The translations under genes were made by a program, and so were the position numbers. Of a stretch of DNA of 27,528 nt, positions 1-22,186 are shown piece by piece. The DNA comes from a virus. Its lineage: Duplodnaviria > Caudoviricetes. Position 1 is the first letter of the stretch; each line of letters starts with the position of its first letter. The DNA lies in the IMG/VR virus record IMGVR_UViG_3300030372_001675, positions 1 through 27,528 of that record. The stretch is one strand, 5' to 3'. The notes below the pieces were generated by a model. It saw only the letters and a program-made list of their open reading frames with translations, did not search any database and had not been told where the DNA came from.

Positions 1-26
1 AAAGATATAAAATATGCAAGGAATTA
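1..26. repeat. 26-nt terminal overlap identical to 27503-27528 (circular assembly junction)
   Basis: aaagatataaaatatgcaaggaatta occurs at both 1-26 and 27503-27528, and a CDS reads in frame across the join. Confidence 0.95.
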
Positions 27-425
27 AAACACAAAGAAATTGATTGTGTAGTATTAGACCTATCAAAAGAAGAAGAAAGAGAATTAAATATTAGACTAAA
101 TAAAAATACAGGTGATTTTGATATGGATATACTTGCTAATGAATTTGATATTGATGAGCTTGTTGATTGGGGTTTTAAACACATTGACCTTGATATTAAT
201 ATAGATAAGCTAGATGATAAATTTACTTTAGATGATAGCGACAAATCACCGTTTCAACAGATAACATTTACTTTAGCAGATAAACAAGCTGAATTAATAA
301 GAGGTAAAATTAAAGAAATAAAAGAAACAGAAGAATATAATTATGTTGAAACATTTGGAAATGAAAATAGTAATGGAAATGCTTTATATTTATTAGTATC
401 ACAATGGGTAGAGCAAAAGAAATAA
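3..425 (+). CDS. C-terminal part of ParB/Srx-like N-terminal domain protein (starts at 27340 and wraps the junction; ~195 aa total)
   Basis: Frame 3 is open from position 3 (RYKICKELKHKEIDCVVLDLSKEEERELNIRLNKNTGDFDMDIL...) into track ORF 123..425. Joined to 27340-27528 it gives typical ParB-like motifs: YNPR, FGLVDPII, IIGGHQR, LNIRLNK. Confidence 0.85.
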   Translation, partial: RYKICKELKHKEIDCVVLDLSKEEERELNIRLNKNTGDFDMDILANEFDIDELVDWGFKHIDLDINIDKLDDKFTLDDSDKSPFQQITFTLADKQAELIRGKIKEIKETEEYNYVETFGNENSNGNALYLLVSQWVEQKK

Positions 426-1084
426 TACTAAAAGTTATACCAAGTAATAGGGCTAATGATTTTGTAAAAAAACATCATTATTCTGCTAAAGTTGTGCCTA
501 ATAGTCAGCTTCATTTTGGGTGTTTTTTAGATGGTAAATTAGGTGGTGTTATGAGTTATGGGGTTTCTATGGATAAAAGAAAAATGTTATCTTTAGTAGA
601 AACACAAAATAAAACAGAAGCAACAAAATGGAACGAATTTCTAGAATTAAACAGAATGGCTTTTAGTGATATTTTACCTAAATATGCAGAGAGTAGATGT
701 ATCTCAATTAGCATTAAATTATTAAAAAAAAACGCACCTCATATTAAATGGATTGTAAGTTATGCTGACGCAACTCAATGTGGAGACGGCACAATATATA
801 GAGCAAGTGGGTTTTTATTAACAAGTATTAAAAAAAATTCAACAATGTTAAAAATGCCGAACGGTCAAATTATTGCAGACAAAACATTAAATAATTCAAA
901 TTATAAAAAAATTGGACAAAGTGCAGGATATTGGAAAAAAAAAGGTGCAAAACCTATTAAAGGGTTTCAATTAAGATATATTTACTTAATTGATAAAAAA
1001 AGTAAATTAAATGTTCCTGTAATGCCCTTTTCTAAAATTAAAGAAATGGGTGCAGGAATGTATAAAGGAAAAATGCGAGTATAG
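404..1084 (+). CDS. mom: Mom-family (GNAT-like) DNA adenine modification enzyme
   Basis: Motifs FVKKHHYS, HFGCFLDGKLGGVMSYG, LELNRMAF, AESRCIS, WIVSYADATQCGDGTIYRASGF and QLRYIYLI match my recollection of phage Mu Mom homologues. Confidence 0.8.
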   Translation: MGRAKEIILKVIPSNRANDFVKKHHYSAKVVPNSQLHFGCFLDGKLGGVMSYGVSMDKRKMLSLVETQNKTEATKWNEFLELNRMAFSDILPKYAESRCISISIKLLKKNAPHIKWIVSYADATQCGDGTIYRASGFLLTSIKKNSTMLKMPNGQIIADKTLNNSNYKKIGQSAGYWKKKGAKPIKGFQLRYIYLIDKKSKLNVPVMPFSKIKEMGAGMYKGKMRV

Positions 1085-1146
1085 CTTAATTGGCTAAAGC
1101 GTTATGCAACCAGCATAAAGATGGGGTTCGAATCCACCTACTCGCT
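1075..1146 (+). tRNA. atypical tRNA-Gly-like RNA (anticodon ACC), CCA not encoded
   Basis: Cloverleaf: acceptor GCGAGTA(1075-81)/TACTCGC(1139-45) with discriminator T1146. D-stem GCTT/AAGC with GG in the loop. Anticodon stem TTATG/CATAA with loop CA-ACC-AG. Variable region AGAT. T-arm GGGG-TTCGAAT-CCACC. Confidence 0.85.
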
Positions 1147-1173
1147 CTAATTATAATAGATTAAATAATACAA

Positions 1174-1527
1174 ATGGGACAGAATAAAAAAGAGAAACTA
1201 TTAAAAGCGTTAGAAGAAACACAAGGCTTAATATATCACGCTTGTAAAAAGGCAGGTAATATAAGTAGAAGTACATACTATAGATACTTAAAAGAAGATG
1301 AAGAATTTGCTAAAGCAGTTGAAGATATTAAAGAAGCACAGATTGATTATGTAGAAGGGCAGTTAATAAAAAATATATCTAGTGGAAAAGAAACAAGCAT
1401 AATCTTCTATTTAAAATCAAAAGCCAAAGATAGAGGTTATACAGACAAATCATTACTAGATATTACAAGTGGTGGTAAGTCTATTACGGATATTAAAATT
1501 GAAGTTATTGACACAGGCAAAGATTAA
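1174..1527 (+). CDS. terS: terminase small subunit (N-terminal HTH)
   Basis: HTH-like ACKKAGNISRSTYYRY, IIFYLKSKAKDRGY and LDITSGG motifs; lies directly upstream of TerL. Confidence 0.8.
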   Translation: MGQNKKEKLLKALEETQGLIYHACKKAGNISRSTYYRYLKEDEEFAKAVEDIKEAQIDYVEGQLIKNISSGKETSIIFYLKSKAKDRGYTDKSLLDITSGGKSITDIKIEVIDTGKD

Positions 1528-3282: not shown

Positions 3283-3446
3283 CAATGCAGTCGAAATGGG
3301 GTTGGTATAATGTACTCTATTCTTTGTCTAATAGTATTTTAGATATTGAAAAAATTACAAGAGTACCAATTTTAGAAGTACTTACATATCTTGCATATAG
3401 TCAAGATTATAACAATAAACAAAGAAATAATTATGATAACATTTAG
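3195..3446 (+). CDS. -1 frameshift extension of tail assembly chaperone (GT-like)
   Basis: After GGGTTTTTTTTT (3195-3206) the -1 frame is open: FDFRKRISSDFAALFTSTGNETTKGVTMQSKWGWYNVLYSLSNSILDIEKITRVPILEVLTYLAYSQDYNNKQRNNYDNI, TAG at 3444-3446. It fills the gap to the next gene. Confidence 0.75.
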   Translation, partial: GFFFDFRKRISSDFAALFTSTGNETTKGVTMQSKWGWYNVLYSLSNSILDIEKITRVPILEVLTYLAYSQDYNNKQRNNYDNI

Positions 3447-3924
3447 AAATATCGTAGAATACCTAGAAACAGTAGCTACAAAGCACTATATGATTAATTC
3501 TTTCCATTCTGGAATGATGGACGAAGTAGATATTAATAAGTTAGGTGCATCTGATTATGTTATACTTTATGCTGAACCTGGTAACGCAATTATTAATACA
3601 GGCGTAATGACATATTCATTCAATTTATATATTCTAGATATGATTAATAATGAAGTTGGTGATGCTCCAAACAAACAAAGACTAGGGCGTGTAGATACCT
3701 ATTCTGAAAACCTACAAATCTTACAAGATGTTATAAATGAATTTAAACAGAATCTATATTCTACATCTTGGATTGCTGATGAAATAGTATTAGAAACACC
3801 AATAAATGCAGAACCTTTTACTGCTAGGTTTAATAACCTTTTAACTGGCTGGACAGCAACATTAAGCATACAAGTAAATAACACTAACAATCTTTGTATT
3901 GTACCAATAGTACCTAATTCATAA
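3433..3924 (+). CDS. putative tail terminator/completion protein
   Basis: ATG at 3433 in an A-rich context (MITFRNIVEY...) is preferred to the track start at 3391. Size, position and C-terminal GWTATLSIQV strand fit. Confidence 0.5.
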   Translation: MITFRNIVEYLETVATKHYMINSFHSGMMDEVDINKLGASDYVILYAEPGNAIINTGVMTYSFNLYILDMINNEVGDAPNKQRLGRVDTYSENLQILQDVINEFKQNLYSTSWIADEIVLETPINAEPFTARFNNLLTGWTATLSIQVNNTNNLCIVPIVPNS

Positions 3925-21463: not shown

Positions 21464-22186
21464 TTGAAAAGAGATTATCGTTTACGCTTAACTAAACCAG
21501 AACATGACCTGATTAAGAATATGCGTGACACTGATGCTAATAATATTCTAGTTATTGGAGATTTGCACGAACCCTTTTGTTTAGATGAATACTTAGATTT
21601 TTGCATTGAAAAATACTTTGAATTTCAATGTGATGAAGTTGTGTTTATTGGTGATATAATAGACAATCATTATGCAAGTTATCATGAAACAAATGCTGAT
21701 GGAATGGGTGGTGCTGATGAATTAGAATTAGCTATAAAAAGAATAGCAAGGTGGCGTAATGCGTTTCCTGTTGCAACAGTTATTATTGGAAACCATGATA
21801 GAATGGTTATGAGAAAAGCACAAACATCATCAATACCGAGCAAATGGATAAAATCATATAAAGAAGTCTTAGAAGTGCCTGATTGGAACTTTGTGGAAAG
21901 ATACGAAAAGAATGGTGTTCAATATATTCATGGTGAGGGTGGTACTGCTAGAACTAAGTGTAGAGCTGATATAATGAATACAGTACAAGGACACCTACAC
22001 ACACAAGCATATTGTGAGCATTATGTTGGTCAAAATTTTAGAGTATTTGGAATGCAAATTGGGGCAGGTATAAATTTTTCTGAATATAGCTTTGCGTATG
22101 CTAAATATGGAAAGAAACCTGCTATTGGTTGTGGTGTAGTTTTGAATAACGGAAAATTACCCGTAAATTTATTAATGGAATTATGA
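21464..22186 (+). CDS. calcineurin-like metallophosphoesterase
   Basis: GDLH, GDIID, GNHD, HG and GHLH motifs. Confidence 0.85.
   Translation: MKRDYRLRLTKPEHDLIKNMRDTDANNILVIGDLHEPFCLDEYLDFCIEKYFEFQCDEVVFIGDIIDNHYASYHETNADGMGGADELELAIKRIARWRNAFPVATVIIGNHDRMVMRKAQTSSIPSKWIKSYKEVLEVPDWNFVERYEKNGVQYIHGEGGTARTKCRADIMNTVQGHLHTQAYCEHYVGQNFRVFGMQIGAGINFSEYSFAYAKYGKKPAIGCGVVLNNGKLPVNLLMEL

What the first reader, a model, noticed from the sequence alone, without database searches (positions are those of the whole stretch)
404..1146. Mom-family DNA modification enzyme coupled to its own, apparently translation-disabled, tRNA-Gly: candidate dedicated glycyl-donor RNA
Seen: the only tRNA-like gene I found sits on the 3' end of the Mom-like gene. 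It keeps G1-C72, C2-G71, G3-C70, U73, C35 and C36, plus the tertiary-core bases U8/A14, A15/U48, G18G19 and TTCGA. It also has A instead of the near-universal U33, a C32-G38 pair that would shrink the anticodon loop, anticodon ACC, and a T-stem with 4 nt (GGGG) opposite 5 nt (CCACC), leaving A63 unpaired. Established: the retained bases are the bacterial GlyRS identity elements. U33 forms the decoding U-turn. T-stem pairs 49-65, 50-64 and 51-63 set EF-Tu affinity. Gly-ACC tRNAs are essentially absent from bacteria. Staphylococci use non-proteinogenic tRNA-Gly with weak EF-Tu binding to feed FemXAB. Mu Mom makes N6-carbamoylmethyl-adenine, whose added group is glycinamide-like, and I recall Mom being reported to use Gly-tRNA-Gly as donor (verify). 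Inference: the phage encodes a private tRNA that host GlyRS charges but EF-Tu and the ribosome ignore. It would channel activated glycine to DNA hypermodification as a two-part protein+RNA anti-restriction system.
Basis: partly seen in the sequence, partly recalled or inferred. Interest (0 to 1): 0.93.

Follow-up and report, generated by a model that had tools for sequence, protein, structure and literature searches.

The report
Phage Mom's own rebuilt glycine tRNA
A marine phage carries, on the end of its gene for a Mom-type DNA-disguising enzyme (the Mu version takes glycine from charged glycine tRNA), a glycine-tRNA-like gene with a conserved kinked arm that is found almost only beside such genes, so it is likely the enzyme's private glycine carrier, predicted to be kept out of protein synthesis (untested at the bench).

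Summary
Confirmed. 404-1084 is a Mom gene (PF25680, E 9e-52; Mu Mom structure 8BV8, E 3e-19) in a complete 27.5-kb phage, and a tRNA-Gly-like gene (1075-1147) overlaps its stop codon. The oddities are family traits, not decay. Of 106 distinct copies beside Mom genes, 104 have a bulged A in the T-stem at a fixed distance from the acceptor end. The 32-38 pair covaries. CC stays in the loop (105/106) and U73 is kept (102/106), while U33, loop size and elbow vary, down to D-armless forms. Linkage runs both ways: bulged elements have a Mom gene nearby in 75/75, 113/120 and 74/76 loci, against 0/121 for canonical tRNA-Gly. Antisense copies carry their own promoter and terminator motifs, which points to action in trans. 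Mu Mom uses Gly-tRNA-Gly (PMC13219725). Best reading (0.7): a dedicated, non-ribosomal glycyl donor for DNA modification; charging, EF-Tu escape and transfer are untested. A34 is a minority variant. Mu and several lineages lack the RNA. A tRNA-Gly-like locus inside a mom homologue was noted in Dehalococcoides islands in 2011 without a function, and this scan reached the same idea on other DNA.

The parts
1..425 (+). ParB-like protein gene, 3' part; its start lies at the other end of the circular genome; overlaps the mom start
   Evidence: phrog_620 ParB-like E 1e-10; reading frame continues from the window's far end across the 26-nt terminal repeat
404..1084 (+). Mom-family GNAT DNA adenine aminoacyltransferase, 226 aa; H25, Y26, R84, S97, D122, Y132 match Mu H58, Y59, R111, S124, D149, Y159; no Arg at the Mu R151 position
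   Evidence: PF25680 E 9.2e-52; phrog_1384 E 4.4e-46; PDB 8BV8 E 3.3e-19 with alignment; residue columns
1075..1147 (+). Rebuilt tRNA-Gly-like RNA gene overlapping the last 10 nt of mom; G1-C72, C2-G71, G3-C70, U73, C74; CCA not encoded
   Evidence: ARAGORN, Rfam RF00005 43.7 bits, family model R1 80.1 bits (the window is in its training set)
1102..1118 (+). Anticodon arm closed by an extra C32-G38 pair, leaving the 5-nt loop A33-A34-C35-C36-A37
   Evidence: 32-38 is a Watson-Crick pair in 61 of 61 aligned sequences (CG 42, UA 18, AU 1)
1123..1138 (+). [quoted passage not shown]
   Evidence: Bulged A in 104 of 106 distinct Mom-linked copies; RNAalifold predicts this register unprompted; unbulged register only 60% paired
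1174..1527 (+). Terminase small subunit, next gene of the same strand (context, not part of the pair)
   Evidence: phrog_4044 E 9e-13

Best explanation
The phage encodes a Mom-family enzyme and, overlapping its stop codon, a rebuilt tRNA-Gly that likely serves as the enzyme's own glycine carrier: it is predicted to be cut from the late mom-terminase transcript, given CCA and charged by host GlyRS, predicted to escape EF-Tu and the ribosome through a bulged A in the T-stem and a closed anticodon loop, and so would deliver glycine to Mom for N6-adenine modification that protects phage DNA from restriction. Shown here: the gene pair, the conserved RNA structure and the two-way linkage with Mom. 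Shown in print for Mu only: Gly-tRNA-Gly is the donor. Inferred: processing, charging, EF-Tu escape, use by this Mom, and the modification itself.
For: (1) Mom to RNA: 124 of 152 Mom-anchored loci carry the element near the gene end, plus one copy 600 nt upstream (L050); 4 of the 28 misses have no downstream sequence. (2) RNA to Mom, from DNA-pattern scans blind to Mom: 75 of 75 bulged matches, 113 of 120 matches to the second bulged register, 74 of 76 full-length metagenome elements. Canonical-T-stem tRNA-Gly control: 0 of 121, of which 79 have at least 1500 nt. (3) Near-identical RNAs sit beside distant Mom clades and in three arrangements: 3' sense, 3' antisense, and 5' or inside the gene start. 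The tie is therefore to Mom, not to one position. (4) Selection on structure: 99.7% of cells paired, 18 of 21 pairs with compensatory change, 0 of 500 shuffles as high. (5) What is kept is the published glycine identity set G1-C72, C2-G71, C35, C36, U73 (PMC9976931); CC in loop 105/106 and U73 102/106, neither required by my parser. U73 also protects Gly-tRNA-Gly from DTD (same passage). (6) What is lost is decoding and elbow architecture: 7-nt loop with U33 33/106 against 86/86, D-loop GG 63/106 against 85/86, loops of 5-8 nt, D-armless copies in Psychrobacter phage Y8A and L382. (7) The bulge lies among pairs 49:65, 50:64, 51:63 that set EF-Tu affinity (PMC11231383) at a constant distance from the acceptor end in both 4-bp (61) and 5-bp (43) stems. 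(8) Antisense copies have a TAnnTTTG promoter motif within 24 nt in 21 of 27 and a hairpin plus T-run in 20 of 27; sense copies 2 of 79 and 1 of 79 (consensus from PMC6847099). (9) Anticodon base 34 does not track local glycine codon use (p 0.62). (10) Precedent: S. aureus non-proteinogenic tRNA-Gly bind EF-Tu weakly (PMC4574755).
Against: Nothing here shows expression, charging, EF-Tu binding or transfer. Mu Mom is fully active with all three ordinary E. coli isoacceptors, so no private tRNA is needed in principle. Mu, its close relatives and 18 of the 23 cultured-phage Mom loci I fetched show none, nor do four near-complete phage records of one branch inside the window's own clade. Those negatives are soft, since the default model search also missed the D-armless Y8A copies. 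L601 has the element before terminase with no mom within 1.5 kb, and the L426 record (83% complete) has no Mom hit. Actinobacterial phage copies (Appa, BarretLemon, Wyborn) and L387 have unbulged 5-bp T-stems, and Appa keeps U33 and looks nearly canonical. A few copies have lost CC or are decaying (L043, L395, L392). The window's Mom lacks Arg at Mu R151, which is essential in Mu. Loci are related phages and some contigs recur between sets, so counts are not independent events. The second Mom clade was seeded from RNA-linked proteins.
Confidence: 0.7

Rival explanations
1. The RNA is a regulator or decoy rather than the donor. It binds Mom or GlyRS, soaks up a host tRNA-cutting or tRNA-acetylating defence, or tunes mom expression because its excision removes the mom stop codon, while Mom takes glycine from host tRNA.
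For: 67 of 79 sense copies overlap the mom reading frame, so excision would truncate the message. Mu Mom needs only host tRNA. U73 and G71 are also the TacT toxin determinants (PMC9976931).
Against: 27 of 106 copies are antisense, mostly with their own promoter and terminator motifs, which a cis mRNA element would not need. A decoy would not have to sit beside Mom in three arrangements. The full charging set including U73 and C74 is kept.
Confidence: 0.13
2. It is a translation-competent supplementary tRNA-Gly that refills the pool Mom drains, with loop changes that evade host anticodon nucleases.
For: Many copies keep a full cloverleaf and UCC. The window's ACC matches its commonest Gly codon, GGT 273 of 485. 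Appa's tRNA-Gly(CCC) is near canonical.
Against: The T-stem bulge is in 104/106 and absent from housekeeping tRNA-Gly of the same genomes. Loops of 5, 6 and 8 nt occur in 40/106 and D-armless copies exist. Base 34 is unrelated to codon use.
Confidence: 0.1
3. It is a hitchhiker of the ParB-mom-terminase region, for example a processing signal or an integration-site remnant, with no functional tie to Mom.
For: Most copies lie just upstream of terminase small subunit; L601 keeps that position without mom.
Against: It follows Mom into non-terminase contexts (Arthrobacter and Microbacterium phages), into the gene's 5' end and across Mom clades. It is full length with covarying stems.
Confidence: 0.05
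4. Pseudogene decay or assembly error.
For: A few relatives are decaying (L392, L395, L043).
Against: The same lesion recurs in 104 of 106 distinct sequences with compensatory changes on both sides. Independent marine contigs agree.
Confidence: 0.01

Closest known systems
Phage Mu Mom with host Gly-tRNA-Gly (PMC13219725; PDB 8BV8; PF25680)
   Same: Same family; six of the Mu residues important for activity are kept; the window's clade is sister to the Mu branch in my tree.
   Different: Mu encodes no such RNA and uses any host isoacceptor. Here a rebuilt tRNA-Gly gene is attached and a ParB-like gene precedes mom. Mu R151, W48 and W181 are not kept.
tRNA-Gly-like 'pseudo-tRNA' inside the mom homologue of Dehalococcoides ssrA genomic islands (PMC3146451, 2011)
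   Same: parB-mom order with a conserved 76-bp tRNA-Gly-like locus overlapping mom, anticodon DCC. Probably the same RNA family in its 5' arrangement.
   Different: Reported for one island family, with no function in the passages I read and before Mom's tRNA use was known. It lies in the first 150 bp of mom. Whether it has the bulged A I could not see: the figure is a picture.
Staphylococcal non-proteinogenic tRNA-Gly (NP1, NP2, NEW) feeding FemXAB
   Same: Glycine identity kept; weak EF-Tu binding; G18G19/U55C56 lost; supplies a GNAT-fold aminoacyl transferase.
   Different: Chromosomal, for cell wall peptides; EF-Tu escape through changed T-stem pairs rather than a bulge; not gene-linked to a DNA-modifying enzyme.
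selC* tRNA-Cys and 8/4 tRNA-Sec with bulged A51a (PMC5389517, PMC7609411)
   Same: A 4-bp T-stem with an unpaired A.
   Different: Their bulge is on the 5' strand with an 8-bp acceptor stem, was dispensable, and they work in translation. Here the A is on the 3' strand with a 7-bp acceptor stem.

Membership tests
Mom (PF25680) tRNA-dependent DNA aminoacyltransferase | Profile match over the curated cut-off and homology to Mu Mom | tested here: met
   176 bits against cut-off 27.1; 8BV8 E 3.3e-19
Mom (PF25680) tRNA-dependent DNA aminoacyltransferase | H58, Y59, R111, S124, D149, Y159 equivalents | tested here: met
   H25, Y26, R84, S97, D122, Y132
Mom (PF25680) tRNA-dependent DNA aminoacyltransferase | R151, essential in Mu Mom | tested here: not met
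   Q125 or T124 depending on the alignment. The column is variable family-wide (Arg in 8 of 37 RNA-negative sequences, not among the five commonest residues in 114 RNA-positive ones), so it is Mu-branch specific rather than family-defining.
Mom (PF25680) tRNA-dependent DNA aminoacyltransferase | Forms 6-NcmdA on dsDNA from Gly-tRNA-Gly | not testable with these tools
   Needs LC-MS or modification-aware sequencing
tRNA-Gly (GlyRS substrate) | G1-C72, C2-G71, C35, C36, U73 | tested here: met
   Window sequence; family counts; identity set from PMC9976931
tRNA-Gly (GlyRS substrate) | C50-G64, an extra determinant of T. thermophilus GlyRS | tested here: not met
   G50-C64 in the window and in 91 of 104 bulged copies, A-U in 13; may lower charging by some dimeric GlyRS
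Canonical elongator tRNA | 5-bp unbulged T-stem, 7-nt loop with U33 | tested here: not met
   Unbulged register 60% paired, column 52-64 0 of 61; window has A33 and C32-G38
Non-proteinogenic tRNA-Gly (staphylococcal type) | Charged with glycine but weak EF-Tu binding | not testable with these tools
   Predicted only from the position of the bulge
Non-proteinogenic tRNA-Gly (staphylococcal type) | Loss of G18G19 and U55C56 | tested here: not met
   The window keeps both; across the family GG 63/106 and TTC 63/106. It works like this kind by inference but is not a member.
Dehalococcoides mom-embedded pseudo-tRNA-Gly | Sequence and structure match to the 2011 element | not tested
   Figure unreadable as text; no Dehalococcoides sequence was fetched

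The most novel reading that the evidence does not exclude
A widespread virus-encoded class of non-ribosomal aminoacyl-carrier RNA. The bulged A both blocks EF-Tu and is read positively by these Mom enzymes, making an orthogonal enzyme-plus-RNA pair that routes activated glycine to DNA hypermodification and shrinks in some phages to a D-armless mini-carrier.
Probability: 0.3. Interest if true: 0.92.

Novelty: new variant of a known kind. Interest (0 to 1): 0.8.

Why it matters
The Mom paper leaves open how the enzyme gets glycyl-tRNA during infection and which tRNA features it reads. This family gives a natural answer and a ready set of variants. If true, it is a dedicated tRNA for DNA modification and a viral counterpart of the staphylococcal cell-wall tRNAs, it gives a job to a class of odd phage tRNAs that annotation tools miss or call pseudogenes, and it supplies a one-nucleotide EF-Tu switch for tRNA engineering. 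Cultured carriers with harmless hosts (Salinibacter B2_17, Psychrobacter Y8A, Arthrobacter BarretLemon, Microbacterium Appa) make it directly testable.

Tried and rejected
No RNA holder listed among public runs, so expression is open. Sigma-70 promoter and terminator scan of 1-1500 was at chance level (10 sites against 8.2 expected; no terminator), and no exact TAnnTTTG lies before the window's copy; co-transcription with mom is inferred, not shown. blastn of the RNA against annotated phages gave only weak partial matches. Rfam missed the Arthrobacter, Y8A and other reduced copies among 13 loci. My parser's calls at L030 and L358 were dropped as spurious, and L032 and L056 were re-parsed from nhmmer coordinates before counting. 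The parser fixed G1 and limited positions 2-3, and the control pattern fixed its acceptor end, T-loop and unbulged stem, so those control columns are not independent. In the metagenome scan, 44 of 120 matches had no full acceptor stem (chance matches or cut contigs; 4 of them had Mom) and were left out of the 74 of 76 count. Codon-supplement idea: not supported. 'Never G34' holds in my sets only; the 2011 paper gives DCC. A phylum-wide bacterial scan was not run; a four-genome check replaced it. No structure prediction was run because the sequence match to 8BV8 was already clear. Literature: ten searches found no paper proposing a Mom-dedicated tRNA or this bulge; the library lacks most subscription journals.

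Full report
The window is a complete 27,528-bp phage genome with direct terminal repeats. The locus reads ParB-like gene, mom (404-1084), tRNA-like gene (1075-1147), terminase small and large subunits, all on the + strand. The ParB frame starts at the far end of the window and crosses the repeat. Relatives occur in marine metagenomes. A Bacteroidota host is inferred only from the promoter motif of related copies.

The protein. It matches Pfam Mom at E 9e-52, PHROG 1384 at E 4e-46 and the Mu Mom crystal structure 8BV8 at E 3e-19. Mu H58, Y59, R111, S124, D149 and Y159 are kept and are invariant or nearly so in 151 aligned homologues. R151, essential in Mu, is not kept and is variable family-wide. 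Mu Mom transfers glycine from Gly-tRNA-Gly to adenine N6, accepts all three E. coli isoacceptors and rejects Gly-tRNA-Ala (PMC13219725: I read the abstract, sections 10, 13, 14, 38 and keyword passages). Those parts mention no phage-encoded tRNA. Of its supplements, two text files were searched and one scanned file could not be read, and the supplementary figures it cites were not seen; they could bear on novelty.

The RNA in the window. It is the only tRNA ARAGORN finds in the genome. CCA is not encoded. Contigs of relatives in four public marine runs show no inserted base in the short T-stem strand, a G49-C65 to A-U double change in one contig, and A/U polymorphism at position 34.

From Mom to RNA. 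I fetched 70 viral loci with close Mom homologues (48-77% identity) and the best 80 of 580 loci of a second, distant clade (seeded from RNA-linked proteins, so biased). With the window and phage Y8A that makes 152 loci. 124 carry the element near the gene end (two spurious parses dropped, two re-parsed). Four of the 28 misses lack downstream DNA, and one has the element 600 nt upstream. Among 106 distinct sequences, 104 have an unpaired A on the 3' strand of the T-stem, always two base pairs from the acceptor junction, in a 4-bp (61) or 5-bp (43) stem. CC is in the loop in 105 and U73 in 102. Only 33 have a 7-nt loop with U33, against 86 of 86 canonical controls. Positions 32-38 form a Watson-Crick pair in 96, against 39 of 86. 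Loops run from 5 to 8 nt. D-loop GG is kept in 63. Base 34 is U 80, A 13, C 4. On a structure-blind MAFFT alignment of the 61 four-bp copies, RNAalifold returned the bulged T-stem and the 32-38 pair by itself. 99.7% of cells pair, 18 of 21 pairs show compensatory change, and 32-38 is paired in 61 of 61 (CG 42, UA 18, AU 1). The unbulged register is 60% paired. This is selection for one rebuilt fold, not decay.

From RNA to Mom. A pattern for the T-loop and acceptor end gave 119 viral loci: 75 bulged, 11 with a regular stem, 33 other. With broad Mom profiles all 75 bulged ones have a Mom hit, against 1 of 11 and 1 of 33, both of which are themselves odd Gly-like RNAs. A pattern for the five-bp bulged form gave Mom in 113 of 120. 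One miss has Mom just beyond the flank; four other records checked, all fragments, have none. In metagenome contigs 74 of 76 full-length elements have Mom; L601 is a clear local exception. Canonical-stem tRNA-Gly loci have Mom in 0 of 121. Housekeeping tRNA-Gly of three bacterial genomes that also carry a Mom prophage are regular, while the Mom-adjacent copy is bulged.

Arrangement. The RNA lies 3' sense (79 of 106), 3' antisense (27), or at the gene's 5' end, where its T-arm reads as the peptide GGSIPTSPLQ. Both orientations and both stem lengths are scattered over both Mom clades. Antisense copies carry the Bacteroidota -7 promoter motif within 24 nt of G1 in 21 of 27 (control windows 0-1, shuffles at most 4) and a hairpin plus T-run in 20 of 27; sense copies have 2 and 1 of 79 (consensus in PMC6847099, passages). 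So the RNA can be its own transcription unit, which fits action in trans. Sense copies such as the window's are probably cut from the mom transcript; 67 of 79 overlap the reading frame.

Cultured phages. Of 23 Mom loci I chose to fetch, five have the RNA. Salinibacter B2_17 has a bulged copy annotated as tRNA-Gly. Psychrobacter Y8A has two tandem D-armless bulged copies, unannotated. Arthrobacter BarretLemon and Wyborn have unannotated, unbulged copies with a 32-38 pair and no D-loop GG. Microbacterium Appa has an antisense, near-canonical copy with a G7-A66 mismatch. Mu, JD024, pAEv1818 and 15 others show none near mom, and whole-record searches of five of them and of four near-complete phage records in the window's clade were blank. 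That search also missed Y8A, so absence is not proven.

Mechanism. The kept bases are the published glycine identity set, and U73 also shields Gly-tRNA-Gly from DTD (PMC9976931, passages). The bulge sits among the pairs that set EF-Tu affinity (PMC11231383, passages). Its fixed distance from the acceptor end suggests it is read by a protein that measures from there, either EF-Tu (blocked) or Mom (attracted); I cannot separate the two. Decoding features drift freely, and base 34 does not follow glycine codon use (p 0.62). By analogy with staphylococcal non-proteinogenic tRNA-Gly (PMC4574755, passages), the simplest reading is a private glycyl donor that spares Mom from competing with EF-Tu (0.7). 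A regulator or decoy (0.13), a translation supplement (0.10), a positional hitchhiker (0.05) and decay (0.01) fit less well. No step of the mechanism was shown for this RNA.

Prior knowledge. A conserved tRNA-Gly-like locus inside a mom homologue was described in Dehalococcoides islands in 2011 (PMC3146451, passages; its structure figure was unreadable). The co-location is therefore partly in print. The breadth, the bulged-A signature, the two-way linkage and the donor interpretation were not found in ten searches (listings and abstract starts seen). I also saw keyword passages of PMC5389517, PMC7609411, PMC7824862 and the 2023 Mom preprint. Earlier scan notes reached the same idea on other genomes, and two found other odd T4-like glycine tRNAs not tied to Mom; these are unchecked notes, not support.

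Verdict: real, conserved and Mom-linked; a new variant of two known kinds (Mom, non-proteinogenic tRNA-Gly); interest 0.8.

Noticed in passing
L190:3162-3300: Cultured Psychrobacter phage Y8A has two tandem D-armless, bulged tRNA-Gly-like RNAs between mom and terminase, unannotated and missed by ARAGORN and Rfam.
   Followed up: partly
L079, L109, L129, L146, L439: Two Mom-family genes in tandem next to one RNA.
   Followed up: no
L081 and L133; L105 and L123: Near-identical RNA and flanks beside Mom genes of two distant clades, suggesting the enzyme is swapped within the cassette.
   Followed up: partly
L423, L435, L439, L442, L443, L445: The apparently conserved N-terminal peptide GGSIPTSPLQ of some Mom proteins is the translated T-arm and acceptor end of the RNA, which can mislead protein annotation.
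   Followed up: partly
L050:842-905 and 3410-3461: The RNA lies upstream of mom with a reduced T-arm; a twister-P1-like ribozyme match (45.5 bits, below gathering) lies further on.
   Followed up: no
window 1073-1084: The tRNA 5' end lies inside the last mom codons, so its excision would leave a mom message without a stop codon; 67 of 79 sense copies overlap the frame.
   Followed up: partly
L433 (G022): The RNA is separated from mom by a 435-aa ORF that looks like a glycosyltransferase by eye (not searched), possibly a second DNA-modifying gene.
   Followed up: no
L408, L404, L419, L405: Mom loci without the RNA often have a DNA methyltransferase or restriction endonuclease gene as neighbour.
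   Followed up: no
window 21464-22186: Metallo-phosphoesterase gene right after holin and endolysin (phrog_221).
   Followed up: no
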